From Azolla caroliniana (lineage: Eukaryota; Plantae; Polypodiophyta), in assembly GCA_043228905.1 (NCBI GenBank), contig JBHGNT010000002.1:28148001-28212000 (forward strand): 64,000 bases of DNA, read 5' to 3'. Shown piece after piece: positions 888 to 49,432 of this stretch (its first letter is position 1; each line of letters opens with the position of its first letter). The position numbers and the translations under genes are program-made. Below the pieces are notes generated by a model, which saw only the letters and a program-made list of their open reading frames with translations, was not told the DNA's origin and ran no database searches.

Positions 888-8067
<7,180 letters not shown>

Positions 8068-10716: not shown

Positions 10717-10863
10717 TGTGCATTTCACAATATGTACCCCACATTCATTCATTCATTCCTTTGCTTCATTCTAAGAAGACCTAGCTAGCTCTATAGAGAT
10801 TCATAGTTAGTGTTCCTAAATGCCCACTCACATGACCACATCATCCTCTCTTTGTTACTAACA

Positions 10864-12408
10864 ATGGGCTCTCTAATTAGGGTTTCTGAAGAAGTCGAAG
10901 AGGAAGAAGATGTTTGTTTGGCCATGGCTAATTACCACCGTCTCTGTGCGGATGCACCAAAGAAACTATTCCTCCTCTTTACCATCGCTCTCTTCTTTAT
11001 TCAAGCTTCTGCAGATCAGATCAATCACAAACCCGCAGAAGTTGACGGCAATAGAAGCCTCAAGCTCAGATTGATCCACAAGAGTGCATTGAATTTGCCT
11101 CAGATCTCTGCAAAGGACGAAAGCTTTGCAGAGATCCATGGAAATCTCTTCTCAGGGGCTTCGTTTCCAGGTAATATTGGTCAATATTTCGTTGAGTTAT
11201 ATTTGGGCAATCCAGAGAAGCCCTATTTTTTCATCATAGACACTGGTAGCGATGTGATGTGGGTCCCTTGTTCTCTATGCCAAGATAACAATAGCAATAG
11301 CAATAACAATAACAATAACAGCACTAATGATACTAACACCAATACAAATGATAGCAATGGAACTTGTGTGGAGGCTAAGAATTCTTCATCAGTTTTCATG
11401 GCTAAGAGGTCTTCGACATTTGACCTAATTTCATGTCCCTCCGACACGTGCTATTATGTCCCACCTCCCCAAGGGGCACCCGCATGTCGTGCTAATAGCC
11501 CCTCTGTATGTACGTATTCATATGGTTATAGCGATGGTTCACATACGAGGGGCATGTTTGCCTATGATACGGTCCGTTTGGTGGCGTCTAAGTCCAAGTT
11601 GGGCTCTCAATATGAAACCAGACATGTTGTTGAGCTTGGAAAAGTTGCTTTTGGGTGCGGAACTGACAACTTTCGTCCTGGAAGCGTGGACTCGGTAGGT
11701 GGGGTCCTTGGCCTCGGTCTCGGTCCTATATCTTTTTCTAGCCAATTAGGAGGTAATAACATATATGGCCACAAGTTTTCCTACTGCTTTCCGAGCTTTT
11801 TCCACACTGCAAACCTCACCAGTGTGATCACATTTGGAGAAGATCTGGTGGCCTCAAATCTTAAGGTTCCAATACAATATACCCCATTCATTGAGAATCC
11901 ATTTTCTCGGGGTCTATATTATGTTGGTATAGATTCAATGAGGATCAATGGAGTGACTCTACCTATACCACCTGATGTCTGGAGTATTGATAAGAATGGA
12001 AAAGGAGGTACTATAATAGACTCTGGAACCACGCTCTCATTTTTTCGAGCAGGAGCTTACGACGTGATAGTTAATGCAGTCAAGGAAGCAATAAACTACC
12101 CTTTGGCCCTACCCACTGCCGGGCTTCCTCTTTGTTATAATGTCTCAGGCATTGAGTTTCCAAAACTCCCGCGGATCTCCATTGTGTTTAAAGGTAGTAG
12201 TGAGGCGGTGTTTAGCCCACCGCCCAATAACTATTTCCTTAGGCCTGAAGAGAACCTCAGGTGTCTAGGTTTAATGGAAAGCTTGCCACAATCTCCCTCA
12301 ATTCTTGGAAACTTGTTGCAACAAAACTTCTATGTGGAGTATGATAGGAAAAGTTACAGGATTGGATTTGCAAAAGCTCATTGTGCCACTCTTGTGGAAG
12401 AACTATAA
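10864..12408 (+). CDS. Intronless A1-family aspartic protease (nepenthesin-like/atypical), probably secreted
   Basis: GQYFVELYLGNP, catalytic IIDTGSD and IIDSGTT, Cys-rich insert, FGCG, FSYC, ILGNLLQQNFYVEYD. Hydrophobic signal-like stretch LFLLFTIALFFIQASA; the true start may be ATG 10924. Confidence 0.93.
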   Translation: MGSLIRVSEEVEEEEDVCLAMANYHRLCADAPKKLFLLFTIALFFIQASADQINHKPAEVDGNRSLKLRLIHKSALNLPQISAKDESFAEIHGNLFSGASFPGNIGQYFVELYLGNPEKPYFFIIDTGSDVMWVPCSLCQDNNSNSNNNNNNSTNDTNTNTNDSNGTCVEAKNSSSVFMAKRSSTFDLISCPSDTCYYVPPPQGAPACRANSPSVCTYSYGYSDGSHTRGMFAYDTVRLVASKSKLGSQYETRHVVELGKVAFGCGTDNFRPGSVDSVGGVLGLGLGPISFSSQLGGNNIYGHKFSYCFPSFFHTANLTSVITFGEDLVASNLKVPIQYTPFIENPFSRGLYYVGIDSMRINGVTLPIPPDVWSIDKNGKGGTIIDSGTTLSFFRAGAYDVIVNAVKEAINYPLALPTAGLPLCYNVSGIEFPKLPRISIVFKGSSEAVFSPPPNNYFLRPEENLRCLGLMESLPQSPSILGNLLQQNFYVEYDRKSYRIGFAKAHCATLVEEL

Positions 12409-14012
12409 AACATCATATGACTAGCTATTGTACACAGAAACCTTTGTATATTATCGAAACTATAGAGTTTACCTTATTATTTTATTCTTTTATGATCAAT
12501 CATCCTTTTGTGTTTTTTGTTTGGAATGTAGCGAATAGAGTAAGAAAATGTCAAGTTCTCATTTCATAACGCAATAATTTTACTTAATTCTTATGAGAGG
12601 AAATTTCAAGTTCTTGTATTCATAACAGAACAATTATCCTTAATTCTTTTCACTCAAGGGAAAAAAATAAACTCACTCTATGAATAGATTAAATGATGTT
12701 TATAATTGTGTGCATGTTTTTTTAGACTTTTAGAAGCTTGAAACTGTCATGTGTATGATCACACAAATCTTACAATGATTGTCATGTAGATGCTGATAAA
12801 GTTTAGTTAGTTGTGTTGGTTCGATAGGCAGTCATTGATGATCAAAATCTATTGTCATTAGCCATACAAAAAGAACAAGCTAAATTATTTGACTGTAATC
12901 TAGAACTCAATATAACAATTAAAAGACCTCTGAGCATTAAGAAACAGGGATATTCTTGGAAGTACAAGTGGCTTACAATTTTTATAGTTTCTACAAAGTT
13001 TTTTGTTGATCGTCAATTCTAAGCTTTTGGATTTTGTACTGGTTGGTTTTGAATCTACATCTTTTGTAAAGGTATTAATAGAGGTGTGTTGAAACCATCT
13101 TTGGTGTAGAAGAGGAACTGTTTCTCAAAGCAACAAGGTTGCAACTTCTTTATCTAATTTACTGAAAAGAAGATAATGAGCATATTTAAATACAAAAACA
13201 TTAAATCCCAAAGACAAATAATTTGATAAAAATAAGGTTGGTTATTTAAAACGTTTTGATCATCAACTTCTCATTTAATTATGCAATAATATAGTATGGA
13301 CTATTTGATCTTAGTTTTGCTTGCTCCCCTAAAGATCCTTTGTTCTTAAGTTGGTTCCTAGGTTGGTTTGGTTTCGTTAAGCCATTGTAGTTCTTGTCAC
13401 ATGCACGCATGTATGTTTACGTATGAATGAGGCGTTCAAGTAAGAAAGTATTTAAAGATAACATTTCTAATTGGAAGTGTAATAAGGGGAAACAATAGGG
13501 AATGAAAGTAGTCCTATTGATCATATTAACAACTAACAAAGAAATTAAGAAATAGATTGAGATTCTAAAGGGCAAAGCAATGCAAATAATTGGTGCAATC
13601 CGAACCATATTATACTTATTTTAAGGTTCCATATATGCCATTAATCAATTGAATTGAAATCATTCCTTTGGAACACACATTGAAATTGCCCACAAATTCA
13701 TTTTAGTTGATGTGCTGTATTTATAACAACGTTAAACTAGAGATATTTAACAAAAATGTAAATAAATATGCTCATTACTGTTGTCGGAAGTGAAGGAAAC
13801 AAACACATGTGAGTTGATCTTTGTTGGTTTGTTAATTGATCTTCCTGAAAAGAAGCAAATAACCTTTGTTTCTTTATAAGTTATTTCACCTCAAAACAAG
13901 GAGAGGCTTCGATTGTATCTACAATAGGCTAAACTTCAACCTTACTCTTTCATAAACATTAATTCATATTCTTCAACTAGCATTAAGTTTACTTATAAAT
14001 GACTTGTCATAT

Positions 14013-15429
14013 TGTGGTGTGCATGTGTTCCTTTGTGCCACCCTTTTAGCACACCCTTTTTTGGATGCATGTACCTAAGTCGACCCACCCTTTTTAGCTA
14101 AGCCAACACAAATGGGAAATTGGGCATGATGTAAGAAGCTAAGTAGGCTGGTTTTAATATCTTATGTGCATTTCACATATTGGTGGAGATGCAAGGTACC
14201 AGTCCCCCACGTCCAAGCATCCACATCTTCCCCCTCACTTTAGGTTGCCCACTAACTTCTTGTCCCACGAGTTTCCTCGATCCCCCTTTGACATGATAGC
14301 CCTCCTGTCCCCCACCTCAGCCAAGTCCAGGTGGCCCTCAGTCCACAAGAGCGATTGATCTCCATTTGCCTATAGCCCTCATGTCCCCCACCTCAACCAA
14401 GTCCAGGTGGCCCTCAATCCTTAGGAGCGATTGATCTCTATTCGCCTATAGCTCTCATGTCCCCCACCTTAGCCCAATCCAAGTGGCCCTCAGTCTACAA
14501 GAGCAATTGATCTCTATTCGTCTATAGCTCTCTTGTCCCCCATCTCAGCCAAGTCCAGGTGGCCCTCAGTCCTTAGGAGCGATTGATCTCTATTCGCCTA
14601 TAGCTCTCATGTCCCCCACCTTAGCCCAGTCCAAGTGGCCCTCAGTCTACAGGAGCGATTGATCTCTATTCGTCTATAACTCTCTTGTCCCCCACCTCAG
14701 CCAAGTCCAGGTGGCCCTAAGTCCACAGGAGCGATTGATCTTTATCCACCGATTGCTAGCTTGTTTTTCGTCACTAGCCCTGTCCAACTATCAAGGCCAG
14801 TAGTTCCGTGGGGATGTCCTCAACACTGTTGTAGCTCAACTCGGTGTCCAACAGATGTTTACATCCCCATACCATCCTCAGACAAATGACCTCACCGAAC
14901 ACCTCAACAAGATCGTCAAGAAGGAGATTGCCGCTTTCATCGATCCATGCCACAAAACCTGGGATAAATCTTGCCTTTCGTCACCCATTCCTACAATATA
15001 TTTGTATAGGCGTCAACATGGATCAACCCTTTTCGAGCACTCTATTGGCGTAACCCTTGCCTCCCACCAGAATCGTCCATTGATGTCTATTCGAAACCTG
15101 CCAACATGGATGATGCCACTTGGGAGCTCTATCTCCAACAAATGCTCCCCCTCCTTCAACAAGCCACTGCTCATGTTCCTGTTCGTGTTCCTGCTCCTTG
15201 GTGTCTTGTTTCTCTTAGGGGGGAAACATAATATGTGAAATGCACATAAGATATCAAAACTAGCCTACTTAGCTTCTTACTTCTTGCTCAATTTATAGTT
15301 GATACAAAGGTACCCATTTGGGTTGGCTTAGTTAAAAAGGGTGTGCTAAAAGGGTGGGCCGGCTTAGGTAAATGCATCCAAAAAAGGGTGTGCTAAAAGG
15401 GTGGCACAAAGGATCACATGCACACCACA
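14013..15429 (+). mobile_element. Internally deleted Ty3/gypsy-derived element with inverted LTRs (TIR-like), tRNA-Ala PBS, integrase remnant and PPT
   Basis: LTR 14013-14177 (TGTGG...TCACA); PBS TGGTGGAGATG 14181-14191; integrase remnant QGQ*F...TSPYHPQTNDLTEHLNK...TWD at about 14790-15000; PPT AGGGGGGAAA 15217-15226; reverse-complement LTR 15234-15429; ATAT on both flanks. Confidence 0.85.
14297..14745. repeat. 76-bp tandem repeat, about 6 copies, with 152-bp dimer structure
   Basis: Units start at 14297, 14373, 14449, 14525, 14601 and 14677. Confidence 0.9.
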
Positions 15430-16149
15430 ATATTTAACATATAAAGAACTAGAGAAAATAGTTTTATGTAGGGGAATAGTTTAAGATGTATGTGTTTGCT
15501 GTTGTTTATGTGTGTTAGAGGAGAGAAAGAGGGACAAAAGTAGACACAAAAGAAAATAATATTTGAGTTAGCTCTAGATTAAGATTTGTTACGATAACCT
15601 TAATGCTTATAACCAGCCCAAATTTTGATGTTCCATGCACACATGAACCACATTGAGAATGAAGATGTTGATCTCATAATATCTAAACAAAAAAGTAAAT
15701 AACATATACATTTACCACTGAGCTTGGAGGGAACAAGTTCTACCCGGATCAAGGGGGACCAGGAAAGTAAGCAAAGATAGTCCAAGCTCGTTGATGATAT
15801 GACTTAGATGAATAGGAAGGGACATGGTGACTTAACATGCTCCACCAAGTGTGTGAATGCACAAGTGATGGGAAAGTGTGCATTAAAGCTCGTCATACCT
15901 TGTCATATGTGTGTGGTCACCATCTTTGTTATATGTAAGGAGAGATACCATTGGCGTTCAACGCGCAAAATATAATGATAATATATCCTTTCTCATTTAC
16001 GAAAATGTGCTTGGAATCCTACATAAATCCCCCACATTTGACGTTTCATCTTTATTTTCATCATCATTTTTGGCTATGTATGTTGGCCTACCTTAACAAG
16101 GAATTGTTTCCATCTTTTATCTTCTAAAACTTGAAGGTTAACAAAGTTA

Positions 16150-18407: not shown

Positions 18408-20125
18408 CGTTGCATCAATGCTCATGTAAAATATTGATTAAAAGATCACACTTGCAAGAATCTACGAGTAAGATGTGTCCACAAAGTCTACTCATATAAT
18501 ATATGCCAATAAAACTTCGTTGTAGAATGGGCAATGCATTTATATATCATGATGTGAGCCCATACTTACTGCTTGACCTATGTAACAAACACCACTCTTA
18601 GGACTATTTAACACAAATTTTAGTTTTTTTTTCAAACAAAACCTACTTCACATTAGTTAGCAAACAAAATACATCAAAGTTCAACACGAAGATCCATAGA
18701 GACTAACTTTAGTGGGATCAATATATACAACATGGAGGAGCAACTCCAAAACCAACAAAACTCACATTGTCCTTCTCCCCACGATTCTCGTAATAAACCC
18801 CACGCCCTCTTTTTTTTTAACCCCGCCGTACTATTTTACAACAAAGTTATCCGGGTAACACAACTACGATAACTTACTTGTGCCCCAACTACATTTATTG
18901 AACACAATTAATGTAGTCCTGCATTCTTTGAACGCAACTTCCCACACCTTTGATCACTTAGTTTTCTTTTACTTGTTCTCACAATCATATGAGCTTGTCT
19001 TTATGGGTAGGATTTCCATTGTAAGTTTGGCTTATGCCTTGTAACAACCATTTTTTTCTCCCTTAATTCAGTATATTTGACACAATAATTGTAACAAAAT
19101 CAACTTTCTACAAGCCAAAAGGCAAGGCTAATAAGTGTGCACATCTATACTACAAGTATAATGTTAATATACATTTGTATCCATATTGACATTCTACTAT
19201 ATGAAATTGTCCATACAAGTATCGGAAATCGATGTTTCCGAATGTCACCATTCTCTATACTTCTAAAATCTTTGTGCGTTTGTTATTGTGCAACAAATGG
19301 TTTTCCTTAACTAAATTGCTTTACAATTTTTTGGATTTCATAAACTTAAAGGAGGTGCATATTTTGAAAGATCTAGTGTGGCGATAGGTACTAGGTACAA
19401 TTTTGATGGGATAAAGAAAAGGTATCTCCTTAGTTAAAGAGGTTGAAAAAATGAAACGCCAGTAAATGCACACACCTACACTACAATTTTATAAGAGAAA
19501 AAACCAATGTAGATATGTATTTATTATTTTTGTTTGTCTATAAAAGTAAAAGGAAATAAGATCGCTGAATAGAAAATAGTGGGTATTTGAGATCCTACTT
19601 GGGTAACAAAAAATAAATTCCTTTCTTCTTCAAAAGGGTGAATAATGGGATTGTGTTAAAAGAAGACGGACACCTATGTGTGCCAAGATTGGTAGAACAC
19701 AATGCATATGCTTACCAAAAAGCATTTCCCATCTACGATCTACAATTTTTTTTATGCCTTTGCGAGAACAGTAAGTGTGTGTTAAAAAAAGAGAGTGGTA
19801 CATATTGGTGCCAAAATAATGTTTGAACACTTATTAACTAGGATAACATATATCCCTTCAATAGTTCACGACAAGGATAGACATACTTTACCTATTAACA
19901 TTTTTACCTACATCCAAATTGTCTAGTAGCCTTAAAATTAAAGATGAGCATTAAAGCTCATAAATTTATATGCATATATGTATGAAAAGTGGATAGTACT
20001 TAAAGTAGTGAAGCAACAACAATGGCTAAAGTAGACAAGCCATATTAAAACTCATGGACCATATAAAATGACAAGTCGTTCTGAATTAGAGACAATAGTG
20101 CACAAATATCAAAGAGAGATTAAAC

Positions 20126-20578
20126 ATGGCAACATCTGTGGTTGAGGGGGTGGCACCACCAACATTCTTCCCGGACTTGAGAGATAAGGCGGCAATATTC
20201 AACGGCCAAGAAGAATTCAACCTCAAGACGGTCGAGCTTTTCCGAAACATGGGCCTCCCAGAGAAAATGCTACCACTTTGTGACATCGTAGAGGGAGGGT
20301 TTGTTGAAGAAACTGGTTTCTCGTGGATCATTGCACGTTCTGAGCAACAACACCATTTTGTCAAAGCCGATCGACACTGCTCCTATGATGAGGTTGTCAC
20401 TTCAACCATCTCTAAAGGTCGAATGTCCAACATCCATGGTGTAAAAGCTAAGGAGTTAGGCATTTGGGTTCCAGTTAACGAGATTTATGTGGATGAATCT
20501 GATCCTAATGAGAAGAAGCTTGTCTTCAAAAGTATCTTGGGCCTCTCTCGCACCATGGCCTTCCACCTCTTCGAATGA
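20126..20578 (+). CDS. DUF538 family protein, copy 1 (150 aa)
   Basis: MGLP..MLPL.DI.E.GFVEETGFSW, HHF, SYD..V, GVKAKELGIWVPVNEIYVD, FKS.LG.SRT; candidate TATA box near 20062. Confidence 0.9.
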   Translation: MATSVVEGVAPPTFFPDLRDKAAIFNGQEEFNLKTVELFRNMGLPEKMLPLCDIVEGGFVEETGFSWIIARSEQQHHFVKADRHCSYDEVVTSTISKGRMSNIHGVKAKELGIWVPVNEIYVDESDPNEKKLVFKSILGLSRTMAFHLFE

Positions 20579-22527: not shown

Positions 22528-24973
22528 TGCCACTGCATAGTTTTACCCGATGTATTAGTATTATTATATTATAAACATCTCACATATAGGCCGTAATTTC
22601 ATCCTTAATATTATGTCAATGTCTCTTTTGTCGGGGTTATGCCACGATCCCTTGAACTTGCCTCGTTTTCATTTGTCATTACTACATTGGACCAACTTAT
22701 CATCTTATAGCTCACCACCAAATCCATTGACATTGATCTGAAAACATCTCAATGTCATCAACTTGATCTATTATCATGAGAATCAATGAAGATTTTTCCT
22801 TGCAACATTAATCATTGCTAACGCTATTGGAGCTCTTGTTTTTTATGGTAGCAATAGTTTTTAGTTTTTCTTCATATGGAAAATGGCAATATGAGATTGA
22901 AACACATGTAATTTCCATTATGTGGCCAGAGGTTTAGTAAGGGTGGTTTTCGGTTTTTTGTTCCTTAGGTTAGCAAAGTCTTTCTAGACATATTAATCAT
23001 TGTCTACATTGTTCAAGCTCTTGCCTGTGAATCGTGATGATGACACAAAGCTTTTAAGTTGTATTAAATTTTGGTTCCAATGTTAACACACATGTTTGAA
23101 GGTATGTGATCATAACCTATACATTTTCCATTTTTTGTAATCAATTCTCTAACATGTTGCATGTTGCTATCTTGATTTGCAACTAATTAGTATTTATTAA
23201 CATGTCTTGCATCAATGAATATGAATTAAATGTTGAATGTTTTGGATGCATTACCATGCAAAATATATGTGAGTATGGTGTTGAAAATTTAAAACGTTTT
23301 AGGGTTAATTATTGCTAAAATGAATGGGGGCCATTTAGGACATTGGGTGATGCAAAACTTGTTTTCAACCCATGTAGACAAATTAGGGGAGATCCAACTA
23401 GCATGATATGCTATTGGTGTTTTTATGTGCTTGGCTAAAGTATTTAAAGTTCTAGAAAAGTAAATTCACATACAACTTCAACACACTCGTCGTTCCTATA
23501 TTCCATGCGCATGGGGTTGGTTTTCATGTTTTCTCTCATTTATTAGAAAGGCTTTTAGTATGGAGTCTGGACCACACCTTACTGCCAATGCTTTTCATAC
23601 CTTTCTAAGTTTGTTTTTGGAAATGTCTTTAAATAAACTCTATAAGTCCATAAATATCATGGGTAAGTGAATGAGCAAGTGTATAAATTCTGTCAATGCT
23701 TGCTTTTACCCATTGTGTTAAAACAATTATACTAAATTATTTATTAGTATTCTAATGTTGCATTTATATGTTATACTAGCAACAATGGGCACCATTCCAC
23801 CACTTAGGAGCAACTATATGGAGAAATTTAGTTATTAATTAAATAATGAGGAGTTTGGGGTGCATGAAAAGGTTGCCCATTATGTCAACAAAGAAAACCC
23901 TTATAATCTAGTGAGGGAATATGAATCTAAAGTTCTATGCCAAACAAATGGGGTTGCAAGAGGTCCAAACACAAGCATTGGGAAGACCCAATAGAACATT
24001 AGTATTTGCAATCAAGCCATTGTATGAAATTGAGCCCTAATGTAGGGTCGATTTTTGGTTTTGCCAAACTCTATAGATTTTTTTCTTGAACATCGACCAT
24101 TTGAAAAAGATATTAGTCAAATAAATATGTATAGCAAGCACTTGCTTGGCTATATTCCATTGAAAGCATATCAAAATACACTATATAAAGGATTTTCATA
24201 CATAAATTTCTTATATCACTAGCATTGTAATAATAATCCAAAGGATGAAGATGTATAACATGGGGCATCATGGTAGTGTTAATAGAAAAACCACATATCA
24301 ATAAATAAAAAATGCCAGAAAGATAACTCAAAGCCTTTCTAATTTAGACAACCATTCAAATTGATCCAATGGATCTCAAAACGACTTAGCATAGGTAACA
24401 ACTAAGTTGTGGGAAAAATAAAATCCATGATGTGGTGGGTTCTCGTTGGTGGAAAGATCAAGTGCCAGAGGTGGCAACAAGCTCGTGCTAGATTTCATGA
24501 CGTTCGAATGCATGAACTAGATCTTAATTAAACTAAATCTAAATTAGAAGTTATTAGATGGGTGGATGTGGCCTTCATTTTTTTAAATATATCTATATCT
24601 ATATACATGTGTGTGTGTCGGTTGGTTTGTTTTTTGTGGTAATATTCAAGTTGAGGATTTACGATGTTTCCCAGAGACGAAAAAGGCTTGCCATGTGGCA
24701 TAATGATGAGTCAATCGTATCTAATCATTTGGCATACGGAAATAATGATAAAAGTTAGTAAAAATTAAATAAAAGGAGAAAAGAGAGTAGTTAGGTGATG
24801 GTAGAATAAGAAGTTAGGTAGTTAAGAAGGCTTGAATTCAAGAAGGTGCCATAGAGAGGAAAACGGGGAGGGGGGCATATTGTAGGATCTATAAAAGGGT
24901 GAAGAGGGCAAGAAGAGGAGAGACACACATAGAGAATGTAGAGAGAGAATCTAAATAGAATATTAGTGAGAGT

Positions 24974-25417
24974 ATGGCAGTTGTGGTAGAGGAAATTCCT
25001 GTGTTCTTCCCAGAATTGAGAAAGAAGGCATTAATATTCATCGGCGACACTGAATGTAATGCGAGAACATCTAGGTATTTTAAAGAGATGGATCTCCCTG
25101 AGGGACTTTTACCCCTCAAGGACATCCTTGAAAGCGGATTGGTTGAAGAAACTGGCTTCTCATGGAATGCTTGTCGTAGCAAGCAAAAGCATCACTTTGT
25201 CAAACCTGACCGACATTGCTCATATGATCAGATCATCACATGCACAATCACTAAAGGTCGCATGTCCAATATTCGTGGTGTGAAAGCTAAGGAGCTCGGT
25301 GTTTGGGTTCCACTAAATGAGATCTATGTAGATAATTCAGACCCTAGTGAGAAGAAAGTCGTGTTCAAAAGCTTTTTGGGATTGTCTCGTAGCATGCCCT
25401 TCCACCTCTTTGAATGA
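24974..25417 (+). CDS. DUF538 family protein, copy 2 (147 aa)
   Basis: LPEGLLPLKDILESGLVEETGFSW...GVKAKELGVWVPLNEIYVD...FKSFLGLSRSMPFHLFE; TATAAAAG at 24890. Confidence 0.92.
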   Translation: MAVVVEEIPVFFPELRKKALIFIGDTECNARTSRYFKEMDLPEGLLPLKDILESGLVEETGFSWNACRSKQKHHFVKPDRHCSYDQIITCTITKGRMSNIRGVKAKELGVWVPLNEIYVDNSDPSEKKVVFKSFLGLSRSMPFHLFE

Positions 25418-29946: not shown

Positions 29947-31645
29947 GAAAGGGGCTCAAACAAGTTGACCTAATGATCAAAGGACTCAATAACTACAACT
30001 TGATATAAAAGCCAAAACTCTCTACGTTAAAAAGATATGTCTTAAATGTCTTCCTCATATTTTAATGACTCTTGTCTTTAAAGTTACACCATGTTTTAAG
30101 TTTTTGATTGCCATGAATAACTAGATAAGAATGTTTATAGCATCTAAGATTAGAACCAATAAACTATTTCCTTCTTCCGTTTCTTTAAAGAACAAGAAGC
30201 AAGGGTTTACATTAGTGTACAAAAGTTCTATCCAAAAGGATATTTCAAGCATAAAGTAATGAAATATACAAACACCATTTGTTAGATATGTGTGGAAACA
30301 CTAGGAAGAGCCCTCCAAGAGAAACAATCAAGGGGGGCATGAACAACCATATAAGTTTGATCAAAGGGACCACAACAAAAGTTTATATACAAGGAAATCA
30401 AAAGAAAGGTGAGAGTGAGTCGTGACCCCAAGCAACGAGATAGGCCTACCCCCTTTTCCTAATAGATCTACATTTTCGTTATTTGAACACCCATTAGTGT
30501 ATCAATACCTACCTTAAAGCATAAGTACACGCAATTAGTTCACAACTTATTCTCAATGTTGGTTTTATTTTATGTACATGTGATTAATATAAGCTGATTT
30601 CATTATTAGTTACTTAGTTGTACAAATTTAAGGCCACATTAAGTAGGAAAATTTGATCCCTTTAGAAATGTGAACGGCTTTTTGGTAATTTGGATTGCAT
30701 AATTATAGTGGTAATGCTTAATATACTCTCTAAAGCTCACACAATTGCAAAAAACTCGGATATGTGTCACGGCAACTAACATGTTAACGACGTTGAGATG
30801 TCTAACTAGATGAGATCTCTCTCCCTTTTTTCTTTTTATTTGGTAAAAAGTGAAGCTTTCCAACAAATATTTATATATTGTTATCTTGTCTATCCTAAAT
30901 TTTTTGTAATAAAATGGAACTTATATCTTAAAGACATTTGTCTCTAATATATCTGTGAATTTATGATATAAAGTCAAACTAACTGGTAAGTTTATTTGCT
31001 GCATCCTAAAAAATAAGCTTCCTATAAAGGTTAAGGATCCACAATCACACTAATGCAAGATTCTTGTTTTTTCATAAAATCAATTTCTACAATGGAACAA
31101 AACTCTAATAATAAAAAGCAAGACTAGTAGGCTATATGCAACAAAAAGAAATCGTATATAAGGCCCATAACAATGGTAGAAAAGACTCAGAATTTGGTGT
31201 GTTTATGTTTTGAAATTTTGAAAACAAATATTTGAAACCTGGTTTGCTCCTACCATTTGAACCTCTTCGCACACCATGAAAGGAAAATTTGTGGTTTATG
31301 AGAATCCTATAGCATGTGACAAACAATATATTCACAAATGAGACTTGAAATTGAACAACACTTCAGAATTGAACATACGGTGCAAGTGACATTGGAATAT
31401 TATAATGAATAGTAATATTAAAGATCTATTAAACAAGTGGCACATGAATCAAACACGATTTAGTAAATTAGGTGGTTTTAATGCTACAAAGAGTAGATGG
31501 ATGGGTGGCAAAAAAGGGAAACATTGAAGGCATGGTGGGTGACAAATGCCATCGATAAAAGGGGCTCTAAGATCCACCAAAGTTAAAACACAAGAGGCAT
31601 AGAGAGTGGGAGTGTGAGAGAAAGACAACAAGAAGAGAGTGAGAT

Positions 31646-32086
31646 ATGGGAGAGGTAGAGGAAGCAACACCATTCTTTGCTCATTTGAGAGATACATCCC
31701 TAATATTTCAAGGCGATGAAGAATGTATTCCTAAATCCATCGAGCTTTTTACAACGATGGGCCTCCCGAAGTCTCTTCTACCCCTCAAGGACATAGTTGA
31801 GACTGGATGGGATGAAGCATCTGGCTTCTCTTGGACAATCACACGCGGTGAACAACAACACCATTTCGTCAAAGCCGATCGTCATTGCGCCTATGACGAG
31901 GTTGTCACAGCCACCATCACCGAAGGTCGTATGACCAATATAAGTGGTGTGAAAGCAAAGGAGTTGGGCATATATGTCCCAGTAAATGAGATCTATGTCG
32001 ATAACTCTAACCCTGATGAAAAGAAACTCGTGTTCAAAAGCATCCTAGGACTCTCTCGCACCATGCCCTTTGACCTCTTTGAGTGA
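31646..32086 (+). CDS. DUF538 family protein, copy 3 (146 aa)
   Basis: MGLPKSLLPLKDIVETGWDEASGFSW...GVKAKELGIYVPVNEIYVD...SRTMPFDLFE. Confidence 0.92.
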   Translation: MGEVEEATPFFAHLRDTSLIFQGDEECIPKSIELFTTMGLPKSLLPLKDIVETGWDEASGFSWTITRGEQQHHFVKADRHCAYDEVVTATITEGRMTNISGVKAKELGIYVPVNEIYVDNSNPDEKKLVFKSILGLSRTMPFDLFE

Positions 32087-35991: not shown

Positions 35992-36274
35992 CCAAGAGCA
36001 TACGCCAAGAGAACGTTGTCGTGAAGAAAACCGTCCCTTAGCGCAATCGGTGCATAGCGCGCGTGAACCGGCTCTTCACGCGTGCGCGCCCTTTAATGTA
36101 TATATTAGAGAATTAGGTACAAAGGTATATCCTAGGTAGTTAGATTCGGTAGGTAGGAAGTTAATGAGGGAAACAGCTCCCTTCTTGAAGCTATAAAAGA
36201 GAGGGAGACGCGGGGAGAAGAGCAGGGCATTATTTCTGAGGAGGACGAAGTGCTGTCGGACCGGAACTGAACGC

Positions 36275-36542
36275 TGTTACCCCGTACGAGCTGTACGGAG
36301 AGTCAAGTGTGATGAGCGAGGGTCGAATATTATCATGATGATGTTGTATATGTGTAGGGAACATAAATGTAATTGTGAGTCGATATGTATGTGAACACAT
36401 GCACACGTGTGTGCATGTGGAGGGATACGATGAGGTGTGAGTGAGTGTCCAATATGAATGCTCTAGGGGGGTTACACCCCTTTGTATCTACCCCCTCTTG
36501 TACTATTTAACCCCTTTATGGGGAATGAATGAGAAAGGAATC

Positions 36543-36585
<43 letters not shown>

Positions 36586-39066
36586 CATCTCTCTTCCTAT
36601 CTCTCTCCCTCAACGTTGAACCCCTTAGAATGGCTCCACCCCCCACCCCACAATGCTTCTCAACGATTCTCAACATCTTCATGCCAATCTCTCTTACCAT
36701 CATACTCTCCATTATCTTCGCTATTACGCCATGTCTATCTTTGTCATTGATAATCATCATCGTCCTTAACCCTAACCCTAAAACATACAACACCTTTTGG
36801 CGACCACTAAGGCGACCCCCCTTTGAAGATGAAGTCGAAGATGAATATGCGGCAAAGACATGGCGACAACGAAATGTGCGATAATGGTGACAATGATGTA
36901 CAAAGAATCTAATTGACGATGTGCAACAAATGGCAGTCACAATATGTGAGACAAAGTCGAGGAATGAGATGGTATGATGATGTGAAGGAAATGGTGATGT
37001 TGATGGGAAGTCATCGAGGAATGCAAAACAATGAAGTTGTGCAAGAGGAAGTTATGAAATGATATGCAACAATAATACGCGAGAAATGGTAGAAATGTGC
37101 GTGTAATAGCGATGATGATGAAATGATGACGTTGTGCGAGACTACAACAATGGCAATGACCGTGTGCAAGAGATGGGGAAAAGGTCAAAGAAACAGGAGT
37201 AAAATACAATGATTACGATGATTATGATGTTGTGTCATTAGGGTTTCGGTTTGCGTCTTCTCCATTTCGAATCTTATCGATGAAAGAGATTCTGAAGGAT
37301 GCAACATGATTAAGGAAGAAGACAGAACGAACTACCAAACTATAGAGACTATGGATTTCTGTTTGAATGGCATTCTCCCAATCATTCTATGTTCCCATCT
37401 TAGGAATTTCGAAGAGATGAATCTCTAGTGTTTTATGAGCAAACTGACACAAGCAAGCAAAATAGACTCAAGAGACACAACCGAAAAGAGCCGAAAAGAC
37501 ACAACCAAACCACGGCCAAGACGGTGATACGGAGATGGTGATAGAACAAGAGGCGATAGAGCACCTGTCGGAAAGCGACCTAAGAACGGTCCCAGTGGCT
37601 GAATGGCGTCAGAATGGAGGCGGCCGGACCTGATGACGCCAAACAACGACAGTGATGGAGATTGCCGGAAGCGGCCAGACAGCAGCCAAACAACAACCGG
37701 ATGACGACTGAAGAGTGGCCAAGTGACGGAGCTCAGCCAAAACAGACGGCCACGCGACTGCAGACCGGCCGGACAGGGCCGGCGACGACGAGAGGGGCTT
37801 CAAGAACGGTCATCACCAACCGACAGAAGCCAGAGAGCGGTCGGAATGGTCGAACAAGACGACAGTCGAACGTCATTCGGACGACGATTGAATAAAGTGG
37901 CCGGAGCAACCGACGTGCTGGCGGCTAGACAACCAATGGTAGTAAGGAATAGAGATAGCCAGATAGAGATGCCAGCCCAAAGAATGGCTGGACAGGGCCG
38001 CGAGAGACGGCAACGACGCCACACGATGGTAGAACAACAACAGAAAGTGGCGGCCGGACAGCCACATCCGAACATCGGAGGACCCTGACTGCGACGGCGA
38101 CAGAACCACAGCCAAAGACGGAAACAGAAACAAAAATAAAGACCGAGACGGAGATGAACAAAGAAGGCCATACAAACACACAGAGTGACAGCCACGAACA
38201 ATGGACATAGTAGTGGTGAATGAAGAAGAGAAAGAAGAAGATGATGAAGTCTGAGAAACAGAAAGAAGAGAGAGAAAGGCATAGACGGAAGAATAAGGAA
38301 GAACGGGAAGAAAGAATGAGGAAGAAGAAAGCAGGTGAGAAAGAAAGAAAGAAGTAGTAACAGAAATGAAAAAGAAGAGGGAAAGAAGAGAAGGAAAGAA
38401 GAAAAAGAAAGATGAGGGTATCAAACATAATTGTAAAAACTTGAGGGTATATAAGAATATTTTAAAAATCAAAGGGCACCTATGAAATTTTGAAATCTCA
38501 TCCACCTAAAGAAATGGACGTGATCGACCACGACATCTCACAAAATCAACAAAGCATAACATACATACACACAACATTTTTAAGGACCCGAAAGAGGATA
38601 CCAAAGTTCGTAAGACGACAGAATGAGAATGTTCATGTCGCGGAAAAGTCGCTGACCGATGGAGATGATCGAGTCAAGCGCTCCGATCGAGGGAGTCGAT
38701 CGTTGAAAGGACCGATGGAAGTTCCGGTCGAAGAGATATCATCATCAAGGCATGTGGGATCGACGTGCAAGGCACTTTCCCACGGGCGTGCGATATTGTG
38801 TTACCCCGTACGAGTTGTACGGAGAGTCAAGTGTGATGAGCGAGGGTCGAATATTATCATGATGATGTTGTATATGTGTAGGGAACATAAATGTAATTGT
38901 GAGTCGATATGTATGTGAACACATGCACACGTGTGTGCATGTGGAGGGATACGATGAGGTGTGAGTGAGTGTCCAATATGAATGCTCTAGGGGGGTTACA
39001 CCCCTTTGTATCTACCCCCTCTTGTACTATTTAACCCCTTTATGGGGAATGAATGAGAAAGGAATC

Positions 39067-39117
<51 letters not shown>

Positions 39118-39343
39118 CATCTCTCTTCCTATCTCTCTCCCTCAACGTTGAACCCCCTTGGGAGGGGGGTGGAGCCATTCTAGGCACCACCCCCCACCCC
39201 ACAATGCTTCTCAACGATTCTCAACATCTTCATGCCAATCTCTCTTACCATCATACTCTCCATTATCTTCGCTATTACGCCATGTCTATCTTTGTCATTG
39301 ATAATCATCATCGTCCTTAACCCTAACCCTAAAACGTATAACA
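36275..39343 (+). mobile_element. Non-autonomous LTR retrotransposon (LARD/large TRIM) nested in the Ty3 LTR
   Basis: LTRs 36275-36792 and 38799-39343 (TGTTA...AACA), 5-bp TSD AACGC, PBS TGGCGACCAC (tRNA-Arg-like), low-complexity non-coding interior. Confidence 0.92.
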
Positions 39344-39789
39344 AACGCTTCTCCTCTGTTCGTTCTCCATTGCTCTTCTCTGCAGGTTTTCGGGAGGCTC
39401 GCGCTGCTTCGAGGAACGCCCGTGTGCTTCCGGCAGCACCTCCATCCTATCCCCTTTCGTGCGCAGACGAGTAGGCATCGGCATATGTTCGTCGGCCTGT
39501 TCGGTTGTAACCACTCGCGTGCTCTATTGTTTATTTGTCATTCATTAATATACAAACATTCGTGTCTCTCTGTCTCTGTGTCCATTCGTGTCTTCTGCAT
39601 TGACAGGGCCGTGTCCCTGTGTTTCTTTGCTCATACGTAACCGAGCGTCTCTCTCTTTCTCTTTCCCCTTCTATCACCTGCTCTTCGGTTCAAGACCCCG
39701 GTGGTCCCGCCTCGTTTCTCCACGCACGCGCATAGTAATGCGACATCTTTGGTGAACCCGACGTGAACAAGGCGGGAGAGGAGCAGAAG

Positions 39790-42722: not shown

Positions 42723-43183
42723 AGAGGGCTGTCAAGGAGTGGGGCCGCAACAGTCCGGACACTCCAGGAAAACCCCATAAATGTACGATAGAGACGAAAC
42801 CAAAGAAACCTTGTACCATAAGTAGGAAGTTTTGTTTCTCCGACAACGGAGGGTGTACGATAGTCGGCGTCGTTGGTCGAGAAAAGACAAGGGCGGATGA
42901 GCGACTTCGGGCGTGCGGAGTTCTCGGGCCCAGCGAGGAAATCAACGGAGCTGTAGAGGCGGTCTCCTTCGACGATACCTTGGGAATACTGCAAGAGGTG
43001 GTCGGAGAGGGCCTTAAAGAGGACCGGACGATACCGGTTTGTTTAGAAGAGATGTACGAAGTCATCGCGGACTTCAGTCGAGGGCTCGAGTCGGATCGGA
43101 CGGCCCGGTGTCGTGAAGAAAACCGTCCCTTAGCGCAATCGGTGCATAGCGCGCGTGAACCAGCTCTTCACGCGTGCGCGCCC

Positions 43184-44820
43184 TTGACGCACGGGACCGG
43201 GAGCAAGTGGGCTCCTTACTGGAAACCGAAGATGGGCTGACGACCGACTAGGCCGTGGTAAAAAGAGTCTGCGGCCGTTTTGACAAATGGTGGGAGTGGG
43301 CTGATACAGGGGCGACCGGGGCGGGTCCTGTCGCAGCAAGGAAGCTCGAACCGATACCGCAGGCGCGACGGGAAGAGACCCGAGAGTGGCTCGAAACCGG
43401 TTCGGCTTCGAACGGCGTGGTCAGAGGCCCGTCTGGGGGGACAGCTTTGGAGGAGCTGACACGGGCGGTAAAGGATCTCCAGATCGCCCAAGCTCGGAGG
43501 GAAGGCGGCGATCAGGCTCGTGACCGACGGCCTCCGGCAGGAAATAGGTGCATGTGGTGCGACGAGGTCGGCCACATCCGGAAAGACTGCGGGGACTTTA
43601 TGGAGGCTTTGAGAAACCGAGTAGTGTACCTGTGGGAAGGTTGGGTGCATGCCAGCGATACCCGGAGGGCCCTGAACCGAAACGACGGGCGAGGAGGAAT
43701 GAAAAGGCTGATGGAAGAGGCGGCGGCACGGCACGCAGAGACTGTCCACTACTCAGCGTCAGCCGGTATTCGGGTCGGAGGCAGCGAGGCCCGGAAGGAG
43801 AGCAAAGCCGGGTTCTGGCCGACGGTGCTGGAAGGTCTCGCCGGTGCCCGACTAAAGAGAGACGAGGCGGACCTCGCGGAGAAGTGGGTCCAGGAGGTAA
43901 CCGGGTGGAGTGACCCAGTCGAAGAAAAGACGGGTTTCGTCGAAGCAGCTTGCAAGAACTACAAGGCTCTGGTTGAAGACAAACGGGTAGGTAAAACCGG
44001 AGGGGCCGGACCCTCACAGAGATACGAAACCCGATTCGGGCCGAAACGGAACGAGGACGGTGAGTCCAGTGCCCGGGATAACCACAAGAAGGGCGGATAT
44101 CGTTTGGGCACGGAGATCGAAAGGACCACAGACCTACGAAAGGTCCTGGAAGAACGAATCCTCGACAGCAAGGTGGAACTGTCGTTGCGGGAGGTGCTCG
44201 GAATCGCCAAGAAGGAGTTCCACGACTCCATCGTAGACTTGGTGAAGAGGAAGAGGCTGTCGACGGAGGCAGAACCGGAAAGGCCTGTGGAGGTGCGGAC
44301 GACGCACATAGAGGACATGGCGCTGGAAGACGAGTGGGCGGAGAGCCACTACTCGAGGCCACACTAGGCCCGAGCGACCACGGAAACCCCGGTGAAGATC
44401 AGAGCTATTCAGGAACCGGTGGTGGCGCTGGTGGACCACAGTTCGGAAATAAACCTGATGTCCATGGACTTCTACAGGAAGGGGAAATGGCCGATCAACA
44501 CCAAGCACGGGTGGAAGATACAGGCGGCGACGCGCGCCACCGAGGAACTACACGGGGCCTGCCCAAACGTGCGAGTCAAGATCGGCGACGTCGAGATAGA
44601 TCAGAACTTCTTTGTGCAGGAGACGTCCTCGCACCCGGTAATACTGGGAGAACCGTACATTACGGCAGCGCGGATGGAGACCAAGGTGCTGGACAACGGG
44701 TCGGCTTACGTGAGGGTCAAGAGTCTGGACGAGCGTCATTCGGTCCAGTTCCTGACGGTGCGATCGAACCACGAGCGAAATCGCGAGTCCCTCGGTGGCG
44801 AGAACCGAGAGGATTTTTAG
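43184..44820 (+). pseudogene. Ty3 gag-protease, copy 2 (5'-truncated)
   Basis: Closely similar to copy 1: CMWCDEVGHIRKDC, ALVDHSSEINL; ends REDF*. Confidence 0.85.
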
Positions 44821-44866
44821 AGAGGGCTGTCAAGGCGGGGCTTCTCAAAGCCTCCGTAACCGGCTA

Positions 44867-46561: not shown

Positions 46562-49432
46562 TGTGAAATGCAGATAAGAGATCAAAACCAGTCTACTTAG
46601 CTTCTTACTTCTTAATCAATTTATAGTTGATACAACGAAACCCATTTGGCTTGGCTTGGCTAAAAAGGGTGTGCTAAAATGGTGGGTCATTTTGGGCACA
46701 CGCATCCTAAAAAGGGTGTGCTAAAAGGGTGGATCAACTTGGGTACGTGCATCTAAAAAGGGTGAGCTAAAAGGGTGGCACAAAGGAACACATGCACACC
46801 ACATTTCCCCCCTGCGAGAAACAAGAGATTGAGGGGCATGAGTGACCATGTGTGGTTCTTGCCGGGAACTGGAACGGTCCTCGCTCAGAGTTGCAACACG
46901 AATACCAACGGGCGTGAGCAACCATGTTGTCCTCACCGAGAATTGGAACACGAACAGGTGAGTGACCATGTGGCTCTCACCGGGAACTGGAACATGAACA
47001 ACAACGGGCATGAGCGACCATGTCAGTCCTCACCGAAGACTGGAACAGAAACAGGAGTGAGCAACCATGCGGCCCTCACTGGGAACAGGAACACGAACGA
47101 GAGATAGGGGCCATGTGCGGCCCTCATCGAGAACTCGAACACGAATGGGCGTGAGCGACCATGCGGCCCTCACCAGGAACACGAACACAAACACGAAAGA
47201 AACTAAAAAATAGAGACAATGAAGCGATGTTGATGATGAAGCGGTGGATATCAGGAGGCCTAACTAGTGAACTAAGGCGGTGCTAATAGAAGAGATACTA
47301 CTACAAGAGACTAACAAGAGTGTCGGTGATGGTGGTGAGGGCGATGCTACCTACGAAGCGGAAGAGGCGGATGCTTGGATGTGGGGGACTGGTACCCCGT
47401 CATCTCCACCAATATGTGGAATGCACATAAGAGATCAAAACCAGTCTACTTAGCTTCTTAGTTCTTAATCAATTTATAGTTGATACAACGAAACCCATTT
47501 GGGTTGGCGTGGCTAAAAAGGGTGTGCTAAAAGGGTGGGTCATTTTGGGCACACGCATCCTAAAAAGGGTGTGCTAAAAGGGTGGGTCAACTTGGGTACG
47601 TGCATCCTAAAAAGGGTGAGCTAAAAGGGTGGCACAAAGGAACACATGCACACCACATTTCCCCCCTGCGAGAAACAAGAGATTGAGGGGCATGAGTGAC
47701 CATGTGTGGTCCTTGCCGGGAACTGGAACGGTCCTCGCTGAGAGTTGGAACACGAACACCAACGGGCGTGAGCAACCATGTTGTCCTCATCGAGAATTGG
47801 AACACGAACGAGTGAGTGACCACGTGGCCCTCACCGAGAACTGGAACATGAACAACAACGGGCATGAGCGACCATGTCGGTCCTCACTGGGATCTGGAAC
47901 ACGAACAATAGTTGGAGTGAGCAGCCATGTGCGGTCCTCACCGGAGACTGGAACACAAACGGGAGTGAGCGACCATGCGGCCCTCACTGGGAACAGGAAC
48001 ACAAACGGGAGTGAGCGGCCATGTGCGGCCCTCATCGAGAACTCAAACACGAACGGGCGTGAGCGACCATGCGGCCCTCACCAGGAACACGAACACGAAC
48101 ACGAAAGAAACTAAAAAATAGAGACAATGAAGCGATGTTGATGATGAAGCGGTGGTTATCAGGAGGCCTAACTAGTGAACTAAGGCGGTGCTAATAGAAG
48201 AGATACTACTACAAGAGACTAACAAGAGTGTCGGTGATGGTGGTGAGGGCGACGCTACCTACGAAGCGGAAGAGGCGGATGGTTGGATGTGGGGGACTGG
48301 TACCCCGTCATCTCCACCAATATGTGGAATGCACATAAGAGATCAAAACCAGTCTACTTAGCTTCTTACTTCTTAATCAATTTATAGTTGATACAACGAA
48401 ACCCATTTGGGTTGGCGTGGCTAAAAAGGGTGTGCTAAAAGGGTGGGTCATTTTGGGCACACGCGTCCTAAAAAGGGTGTGCTAAAAGGGTGGGTCAACT
48501 TGGGTACGTGCATCCTAAAAAGGGTGAGCTAAAAGGGTGGCACAAAGGAACACATGCACACCACATTTCCCCCCTGCGAGAAACAAGAGATTGAGGGGCA
48601 TGAGTGACCATGTGTGGTCCTTGCCGGGAACTGGAACGGTCCTCGCTGAGAGTTGGAACACGAACACCAACGGGCGTGAGCAACCATGTTGTCCTCATCG
48701 AGAATTGGAACACGAACGAGTGAGTGACCACGTGGCCCTCACCGAGAACTGGAACATGAACAACAACGGGCATGAGCGACCATGTCGGTCCTCACTGGGA
48801 TCTGGAACACGAACAATAGTTGGAGTGAGCGGCCATGTGCGGTCCTCACCGGAGACTGGAACACAAACAGGAGTGAGCGACCATGCGGCCCTCACTGGGA
48901 ACAGGAACACAAACGGGAGTGAGCGGCCATGTGCGGCCCTCATCGAGAACTCCAACACGAACGGTCGTGAGCGACCATGCGGCCCTTACCAGGAACACGA
49001 ACACGAACACGAACACGAAAGAAACTAAAAAATAGAGACAATGAAGCGATGTTGATGATGAAGCGGTGGATATCAGGAGGCCTAACTAGTGAACTAAGGC
49101 GGTGCTAATAGAAGAGATACTACTACAAGAGACTAACAAGAGTGTCGGTGATGGTGGTGAGGGCGATGCTACCTACGAAGCGGAAGAGGCGGATGCTTGG
49201 ATGTGGGGGACTGGTACCCCGTCATCTCCACCAATATGTGGAATGTACATAAGAGATCAAAACCAGTCTATTTTGCTTGTTACTTCTTAATCAATTTATA
49301 GTTGATACAACGGAACCCATTTGGGTTGGCTTGGCCAAAAAGGGTGTGCTAAAAGGGTGGGTCATTTTGGGCACACACATCCTAAAAAGGGTGTGCTAAA
49401 AGGGTGGCACAAAGGAACACATGCACACCACA
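46562..49432 (-). mobile_element. Tandem-array TRIM: 4 LTRs and 3 non-coding internal units (about 850-915 bp period), same family as 14013-15429
   Basis: LTRs 46562-46803, 47415-47657, 48323-48565, 49237-49432. On the minus strand each internal unit starts with PBS TGGTGGAGATG(A)CGGGGTA (tRNA-Ala) and ends with PPT GGGGGGAAA. Internal repeats of about 50 bp. Flanks TTAA and TTAT. Confidence 0.9.

What the first reader, a model, noticed from the sequence alone, without database searches (positions are those of the whole stretch)
14009..15433. LTR retroelement whose second LTR is flipped, giving a Ginger-like TIR element
Seen: LTR, tRNA-Ala PBS, 76-bp repeats, integrase remnant and PPT in normal retroelement order. 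Exactly where the 3' LTR should start there is a 7-nt linker (CATAATA) and the LTR in reverse complement. The result has 165-196 bp inverted termini starting TGT and ending ACA, with ATAT on both sides. The same LTR family is in normal direct orientation at 46562-49432, which shows the repeat is an LTR. Known: Ginger/GingerRoot DNA transposons have gypsy-integrase-like transposases, TGT...ACA ends and 4-bp TSDs. Inference: this may be an LTR-to-TIR intermediate or an aberrant cDNA integrated through two U3 ends. Caveat: ATAT is palindromic and common in AT-rich DNA.
Basis: partly seen in the sequence, partly recalled or inferred. Interest (0 to 1): 0.8.

Follow-up and report, generated by a model that had tools for sequence, protein, structure and literature searches.

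The report
Retrotransposon inserted by two left ends
This dead plant jumping gene sits at a single insertion site with its end-repeat facing outward on both sides, and about one in eight traceable copies of its family has the same shape with a different joint each time, so it is likely a recurring copying slip that gives a retrotransposon the inverted ends of a DNA transposon, with no sign that such copies move again.

Summary
In detail: LTR, tRNA-Ala PBS, 76-bp repeats, integrase remnant, PPT, then an inverted LTR, with ATAT on both sides. ATAT alone proves little, being the family's usual target (31 of 46 normal copies). But a related organism has the empty site, with the flanks joined over one 4-base site, so this was one insertion.

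It is not a Ginger transposon. The integrase scrap is 87% identical to an ordinary gag-pol Ty3/gypsy element of this genome, the junction is unique, and the inverted copies are not one clade. The shape recurs: 14 two-U3-ended copies were found, 10 of 83 resolved copies in a PBS-anchored survey, each with its own joint. In 10 of 13 readable joints one partner ends 2-13 nt past an LTR end on PBS-side letters, as plus-strand strong-stop DNA does.

Best reading: a plus strand stalled at the PPT was joined tail-to-tail to a strong-stop DNA and integrated by two U3 ends. It is a one-step route from LTRs to TIRs, but no such copy has a whole integrase or has multiplied. Unreviewed notes of this scan report the same shape in other genomes.

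The parts
14009..14012 (.). left copy of the 4-bp target-site duplication (ATAT)
   Evidence: the family's usual target
14013..14177 (+). 5' LTR, 165 bp, U3 end facing out; two internal gaps against the other LTR
14181..14192 (+). primer-binding site, 12 nt complementary to the 3' end of tRNA-Ala(GGC) plus CCA, after a 3-nt spacer
14296..14745 (+). 5.9 tandem copies of a 76-bp unit, 76-79% like a stretch of pol behind the protease of the autonomous copy L116
14802..15166 (+). integrase remnant: C-terminal half of the core only, with a stop and a frameshift; 87% nucleotide identity to the autonomous copy L116
   Evidence: (rve_3, below the curated cut-off)
15217..15226 (+). polypurine tract, ending exactly where the 3' LTR starts in normal copies
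15227..15229 (+). 3-nt filler (CAT) at the inner joint, found in this copy only
15230..15233 (-). PBS-side stub (TATT on the minus strand) carried by the inverted LTR
15234..15429 (-). second LTR, 196 bp, inverted, U3 end facing out
15430..15433 (.). right copy of the target-site duplication (ATAT)
46562..49432 (-). same LTR family in direct orientation: tandem array of 4 LTRs and 3 non-coding internal parts (comparison copy)

Best explanation
This is a non-autonomous Ty3/gypsy copy that sits at one insertion site with a U3 end on both sides, likely because reverse transcriptase joined a plus strand stalled at the polypurine tract to the 3' end of a second, free plus-strand strong-stop DNA, after which the family's integrase would have inserted the product by its two U3 ends. 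Shown: the anatomy, the single target site, the parent family, the recurrence, the unique joints and the independent origins. Inferred: (1) the RNA was copied in trans by the autonomous gag-pol partner; (2) the PPT primed more than once, leaving spare strong-stop DNA ending just past U5; (3) after the second strand transfer the plus strand stopped at the PPT/U3 border, where strand displacement should begin; (4) it jumped end-to-end, with a 3-nt filler, onto the strong-stop DNA and copied it to its U3 end; (5) integrase accepted two U3 ends and made the usual 4-bp duplication. The product lacks a direct R repeat, so it is predicted to be unable to retrotranspose. The shared core (one integration of a DNA with two U3 ends made from replication intermediates) I put at about 0.85; the number below is for RT doing the joining.
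For: Empty site: an X11 contig lies on 13687-14013 and goes on with 30 letters matching 15435-15464 at 28 places, i.e. one 4-base site and no element. Recurrence: 14 two-U3-ended copies; 11 of the 13 with both ends have a perfect direct 4-bp repeat, two of them non-palindromic (ATAA in L161, GTAT in L025), 2 have one mismatch. PBS-anchored survey: 10 of 83 resolved copies. Joint anatomy: in 10 of 13 readable joints one partner ends 2-13 nt past an LTR's U5 end on spacer/PBS letters; in 3 the other partner ends exactly at the PPT 3' edge and in 1 at its 5' edge. LTR pairs of 8 inverted copies differ by a median 5.5%, like 46 normal copies (5.2%, p=0.32) and less than random pairs of 5' LTRs (8.7%, p=0.005). 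Seven inverted copies need 7 origins on a tree of 79 rows; one clade is rejected, p-AU 0.00015. Repeated PPT priming and piled-up dead-end strong-stop DNA ending at U5 or 12 nt into the tRNA are described for Ty1/Ty3 (PMC5371799, passages). The U5 end folds into a 6-bp hairpin, and L009 carries 12 nt that read as its snap-back copy.
Against: Sequence cannot tell an RT jump from end-joining by the host. The RT 'clamp' needs a C or G in the 2-nt overlap (PMC3035444, abstract), whereas the PPT-edge joints overlap by 0-1 A:T pair or hold a filler. The inner junction of this copy was not seen in read contigs. For this copy alone the LTR difference (6.7%) sits at the lower quartile of random pairs (6.8%) and does not discriminate. 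A U5-U5 copy also exists (L242), which this exact path does not explain. Only 1 of 24 resolved copies of the autonomous subfamily is inverted. 15 of 98 surveyed copies were unresolved, and about 30 copies called direct from coordinates alone were not read for extra inverted ends.
Confidence: 0.6

Rival explanations
1. Two-donor integration with host end-joining: one integrase complex held the U3 ends of two unfinished cDNAs from one particle, inserted both at one site, and the host joined their free inner ends.
For: It predicts the same single TSD. Joints with 0-2 nt overlap or short filler, truncated U3 pieces (L025, L191, L166) and a U5-U5 copy with ATAT/ATAT (L242) all fit. Two-donor concerted integration in vitro is recalled, not read here.
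Against: Blunt joints exactly at the PPT edge with intact stubs show little resection. The fold-back joints of L009 and L224 need DNA synthesis from a self-primed end.
Confidence: 0.23
2. Post-integration repair: a normal copy inserted first, then a break at its 3' end was mended by copying the 5' LTR backwards and re-annealing at the right flank, helped by the short inverted repeat formed by the LTR termini and the palindromic ATAT.
For: It keeps the TSD and the empty site, explains the PBS-side stub, and gives LTR pairs closer than random.
Against: The product expected from microhomology between the two LTR termini (PPT directly followed by the inverted U5 end, no stub) was not among the 17 matches of a pattern that would catch it. 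It does not explain joints at the exact PPT edge, two-PBS copies (L185), or non-palindromic TSDs kept intact (L161, L025). Inverted pairs are not younger than normal pairs.
Confidence: 0.11
3. A mobile Ginger-like TIR family: the inverted copies are cut and pasted as DNA by an integrase-like transposase.
For: TG...CA inverted ends of 165-196 bp around an integrase fragment with a 4-bp TSD match the outline of Ginger1/2 (PMC2836005).
Against: This junction has one exact copy in 523 Mb; all 13 readable joints differ; copies are polyphyletic. No inverted copy with a whole integrase was found; the one autonomous-type case, L271, aligns only to gag, protease and the start of RT. L024 and L025 share their flanks, so they are one locus assembled twice, not a transposed pair.
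Confidence: 0.02
4. Two independent, convergent insertions followed by a deletion between them (the route proposed for Ginger1 TIRs in PMC2836005), or an assembly error at the inner joint.
For: Target preference alone gives matching flanks in about 67% of such pairs. The inner joint was not bridged in the listed contigs.
Against: The flanks are contiguous in the empty allele. The right U3/flank joint is bridged with 35 letters on the LTR side in X3, a run with its own SNPs; the left joint is crossed by contigs of X2, X3 and X4 with 24-26 letters, short of the tool's 31-letter rule. Deletion ends would not cluster at strong-stop and PPT ends.
Confidence: 0.04

Closest known systems
Non-autonomous Ty3/gypsy LTR retrotransposon (parent family: 4.6-kb gag-PR-RT-RH-INT elements of this genome, e.g. 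L110, L116)
   Same: TG...CA LTR with the same first and last bases, tRNA-Ala PBS, same PPT, 4-bp ATAT target, integrase 87% identical in DNA
   Different: The second LTR is inverted and carries a PBS-side stub; there is no direct R repeat, so it is predicted to be a dead end.
Template-switch complex LTR insertions of Triticeae, rice and maize (Sabot and Schulman 2007, PMC1950507; passages read)
   Same: An aberrant reverse-transcription product integrated as one unit with a clean TSD
   Different: Those are direct three-LTR dimers ('inverted' occurs 0 times in the text); the array at 46562-49432 resembles them, the finding does not.
Ginger1 and Ginger2/Tdd DNA transposons (Bao et al. 2010, PMC2836005; passages and Discussion read)
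   Same: Inverted ends of 40-270 bp starting TGT, gypsy-type integrase domain, 4-bp TSD
   Different: Ginger has a whole transposase, no PBS or PPT, multi-copy families, and CCGG/CCGT (Ginger1) or RTATAY (Ginger2) targets; here a broken pol fragment, PBS and PPT, and single-copy joints.
GingerRoot (Cerbin et al. 2019, PMC6839031; passages read)
   Same: Plant element with an integrase-related DDE domain between 100-150 bp TIRs
   Different: 6-bp GC-rich TSD and TA...TA ends in 72 of 77 copies; here 4-bp ATAT and TG...CA.
DIRS retrotransposons (inverted LTRs; search listings only, the rest recalled)
   Same: Retroelement with inverted terminal repeats
   Different: DIRS use a tyrosine recombinase and their inversion is the heritable norm; here a DDE integrase family whose norm is direct LTRs (179 normal against 4 inverted PPT joints).

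Membership tests
Ty3/gypsy LTR retrotransposon (derivative) | TG...CA LTR followed by a tRNA PBS, PPT before the second LTR | tested here: met
Ty3/gypsy LTR retrotransposon (derivative) | coding remnants derive from a gag-PR-RT-RH-INT element with direct LTRs | tested here: met
   87% over 366 bp to L116; Pfam domain order in P0001 and L110; LTR pairs 97-100% alike in most such copies
Ty3/gypsy LTR retrotransposon (derivative) | two LTRs in direct orientation | tested here: not met
   met in the family (179 normal PPT joints), not in this copy
Ty3/gypsy LTR retrotransposon (derivative) | family-typical TSD from one integration | tested here: met
   4-bp TSD, as in 38 of 46 normal copies; empty site
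Ginger1 / Ginger2 | TIRs of 40-270 bp beginning TGT, 4-bp TSD | tested here: met
Ginger1 / Ginger2 | stand-alone integrase-like transposase with zinc finger and whole DDE core, without RT or RNase H in its lineage | tested here: not met
   only the C-terminal half of the core, broken, and traceable to a pol polyprotein
Ginger1 / Ginger2 | target CCGG/CCGT or RTATAY | tested here: not met
   ATAT, the parent LTR family's target
Ginger1 / Ginger2 | dispersed copies of one structure (DNA-level mobility) | tested here: not met
   unique junction, polyphyletic copies
Ginger1 / Ginger2 | integrase groups with Ginger transposases in a tree | not tested
   no Ginger reference sequence was fetched; the direct match to a gypsy pol made it unnecessary for this copy
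GingerRoot | 6-bp TSD and mostly TA...TA termini | tested here: not met
Ginger-type cut-and-paste | excision of the element by integrase | not testable with these tools
   needs an excision assay or population footprints

The most novel reading that the evidence does not exclude
Ty3/gypsy replication routinely throws off TIR-bounded, TSD-flanked copies, about one insertion in eight in this family, so retrotransposons keep making ready-made DNA-transposon shells whose two ends are the integrase's own U3 site. This would be the missing step from Gypsy to Ginger1; a copy that kept a whole integrase, or was excised by integrase in trans, would be a newborn DNA transposon.
Probability: 0.12. Interest if true: 0.85.

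Novelty: new variant of a known kind. Interest (0 to 1): 0.55.

Why it matters
Bao et al. 2010 state that the chain of events from an LTR retrotransposon to a Ginger DNA transposon is unclear and suggest two chance insertions in opposite orientation. Here inverted LTR ends with a clean TSD arise in one insertion, many times over, in a family where they can be counted and their joints read, which makes that step testable. The joints also record the 3' ends of plus-strand strong-stop DNA in a plant element. Tools that require direct LTRs would miss or misfile about a tenth of this family as TIR elements. It stays a by-product unless mobility is shown.

Tried and rejected
In-genome empty site: the left flank is single-copy, so no paralogous test was possible. 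ATAT on both sides as proof of one insertion: rejected, chance match about 0.67. Pattern hits L031, L033 and L038-L047 and L071, L073-L079 had no family LTR at the match and were dropped as chance. The two 2-mismatch hits were not inspected (control: 1). L008 is two separate neighbouring copies, not one unit. X12 lacks the element together with about 165 and 77 flank bases, so it says nothing on the TSD; X13 and X14 do not reach the site. Reading the filler as a hairpin (the joint forms an 11-nt odd palindrome): the fold does not form it, and 3 letters can be chance. Nearest-neighbour ranks of LTR partners were too noisy in normal copies (ranks 1-100) to use. No RNA data were examined, so transcription or small RNAs from the inverted arms are open. 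Lauermann and Boeke 1997 was not held. Seven literature searches for inverted or two-U3 LTR insertions listed no description of this structure in their titles or abstract openings; the library lacks most subscription and many older papers, and no supplements were read.

Full report
Observation. The window is G000:C2:28148001-28212000 of a 523-Mb genome. It is a land plant, probably a fern: the best named relative of the family's pol is an Adiantum capillus-veneris protein (54% identity), followed by arthropod elements at about 40%. The element runs 14013-15429 between two ATAT. It reads LTR (165 bp), spacer, PBS, 76-bp repeats, integrase remnant, PPT, then CAT, AATA and the LTR in reverse complement (196 bp). 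The PBS matches a genomic tRNA-Ala(GGC) end over 12 nt. AATA is the reverse complement of what follows a 5' LTR, so the inverted LTR carries a PBS-side stub. It does not carry the genomic ATAT that a flipped 3' LTR would bring along.

Parent family. Searching G000 with the integrase remnant gave 150 scored matches. Among 20 fetched loci were 4.6-kb elements with direct LTRs mostly 97-100% alike, the same U5 end, a tRNA-Ala PBS and gag, protease, RT, RNase H and integrase in Ty3/gypsy order. The remnant is 87% identical over 366 bp to one of them, L116, and the 76-bp unit resembles a stretch of its pol. It keeps only the C-terminal half of the core and is broken. Of 46 normal non-autonomous copies with both LTRs, 38 have a perfect 4-bp TSD (31 ATAT, 3 GTAT, 2 ATAG, 1 CTCT, 1 CTAT); none of the 48 rows has a 5-bp one; two rows, L184 and L242, were aberrant copies and were dropped. 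ATAT on both sides is therefore the family's norm, and two unrelated flanks would match about two times in three.

One insertion. A contig of run X11, a related organism, lies on 13687-14013 (325 letters, 32 differences) and goes on with 30 letters that match 15435-15464 at 28 places. By length this is one copy of the 4-base site and no element; X11's letters at those four places were not displayed. X12 also lacks the element, inside a larger gap. In runs that carry the element, the right U3/flank joint is bridged by X3, a run with its own SNPs, with 35 letters on the LTR side; X1 and X2 have 30 and 26. The left joint is crossed with 24-26 letters by X2, X3 and X4, under the tool's 31-letter rule. 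No listed piece bridges the inner joint, and the tables were cut.

Recurrence. A pre-PPT motif is followed by a normal LTR start 179 times and by the inverted U5 end 4 times, among 12 pattern hits of which 8 were chance. For a count that does not depend on the joint I took the first 100 of 194 LTR-PBS sites, which are 98 elements. 72 are direct (49 paired by coordinates, 23 read), 10 have U3 facing out on the 3' side, 1 is head-to-head and 15 are unresolved, mostly through nested insertions. That is 10 of 83, or 9 of 82 without this copy. Of 48 PPT sites without a paired PBS I fetched 36; they gave one more U3-U3 copy (L224) and one U5-U5 copy with ATAT on both sides (L242). Of 60 fetched PBS sites of the autonomous subfamily (71 in all), 23 are direct, 1 is U3-U3 (L271, without integrase) and 36 are unresolved or tandem. 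With L009 and L025 from the first search the total is 14 U3-U3 copies. 13 have both ends: 11 have a perfect direct repeat (9 ATAT, ATAA in L161, GTAT in L025) and 2 have one mismatch.

Joints. All 13 readable joints differ (read by eye). In 10, one partner ends 2-13 nt beyond an LTR's U5 end on spacer and PBS letters. In 3 (this copy, L002, L161) the other partner ends exactly at the PPT 3' edge, and in L163 at its 5' edge. Overlaps are mostly 0-2 nt or a short filler. The others join truncated U3 pieces or fold back inside the LTR (L166, L191, L224). L009 carries a short reverse copy of U5 that fits snap-back from a 6-bp hairpin at the LTR end. The product expected from DNA microhomology between the two LTR termini, PPT straight into the inverted LTR with no stub, was not found.

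Origin of the second LTR and independence. The LTR pairs of 8 inverted copies differ by a median 5.5%, normal pairs by 5.2% (p=0.32), random 5' LTR pairs by 8.7% (p=0.005 against inverted). This fits both LTRs coming from one template or particle, though this copy alone (6.7%) is not decisive. On a tree of a 241-bp internal stretch (79 rows; 7 of the 14 inverted copies held enough of it) the inverted label needs 7 changes, as many as shuffled labels; starred branches force at least 3; one clade is rejected (p-AU 0.00015). This copy's junction has one exact match in the genome. So the shape is remade each time, not spread from a founder.

Mechanism. In Ty1 and Ty3 the PPT primes several times, and dead-end plus-strand strong-stop DNAs that end at U5 or 12 nt into the tRNA build up in particles (PMC5371799, passages). 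The stubs here fall in that range. I infer that a plus strand extended after the second transfer stopped at the PPT/U3 border and was joined to the 3' end of such a spare strand, giving a DNA with two U3 ends that integrase inserted normally. Whether RT made the join before integration (0.6) or the host after a two-donor integration (0.23) cannot be read from sequence. RT can bridge strand ends with 2-nt overlaps and add untemplated bases, but the overlap needs a C or G (PMC3035444, abstract), which the PPT-edge joints lack. Later repair of a normal copy is possible (0.11).

Comparison. In outline it works like a TIR element: two inverted integrase-recognised ends and a TSD. It is not a member of Ginger1, Ginger2 or GingerRoot: no whole transposase, a different target, PBS and PPT present, no copies (PMC2836005, passages and Discussion; PMC6839031, passages). 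The nearest published kind is the template-switch complex insertion, which is direct (PMC1950507, passages). Seven searches listed no description of two-U3 genomic copies, within a library that lacks most subscription papers; early Ty1 work on U3-U3 donors is recalled only. Unreviewed notes of this scan describe the same shape in other genomes and, for other families, in this one. My reading was set down before I saw them; they are leads, not support.

Verdict. The feature is real, and its single integration is well supported. It is a recurring by-product of Ty3/gypsy replication, dead as a retroelement by prediction and unproven as a DNA transposon. New variant of a known kind; interest 0.55, for the high rate, the empty site and the bearing on the open Gypsy-to-Ginger question.

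Noticed in passing
window 36017-46342: A second, unrelated family shows the same outline: LTR-like TGT...ACA ends facing each other (36013-36275 against 46346-46122, 77%; 39335-40291 against 46135-45155, 91%) with ACGT on both sides, and duplicated gag-like regions inside. Possibly another two-U3-ended insertion; ACGT is palindromic.
   Followed up: partly
window 46562-49432: Tandem array of 4 LTRs and 3 non-coding internal parts of the same family, flanks ATAA and TTAA on the element strand; like template-switch or TRIM-type tandem arrays.
   Followed up: partly
L110-L128 (autonomous copies in G000): A short (4.6 kb) plant Ty3/gypsy family with tRNA-Ala PBS and a sequence-specific 4-bp ATAT target, whose best named relatives beyond Adiantum are arthropod elements. 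Neumann et al. 2019 name only Phygy (NCGN) as sequence-specific in plants (PMC6317226, passages). Lineage not placed.
   Followed up: partly
L242:314-3276 (G000 C10) and L165/L208 (G000 C2): Head-to-head joins with U5 ends outward: L242 is complete with ATAT on both sides; for L165 the far end was not found.
   Followed up: partly
L185:313-1247 (G000 C5): A copy with two full LTRs and two PBS facing inward, ATAT on both sides.
   Followed up: partly
L263 and L275; L284 and L285; L005 and L014; L024 and L025: Pairs of loci with the same flanks or structure at two places of the assembly: segmental duplicates or haplotigs.
   Followed up: no
window 20099-20578, 24959-25417, 31643-32086, 53749-54231: Four dispersed paralogous ORFs of about 150 aa, 60-80% alike in DNA; family not searched.
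   Followed up: no
window 10807-12408 and 5106-6852: A single-exon ORF of 533 aa that reads like an aspartic protease, and kinesin-like exons, upstream of the element (names recalled from motifs, not searched).
   Followed up: no
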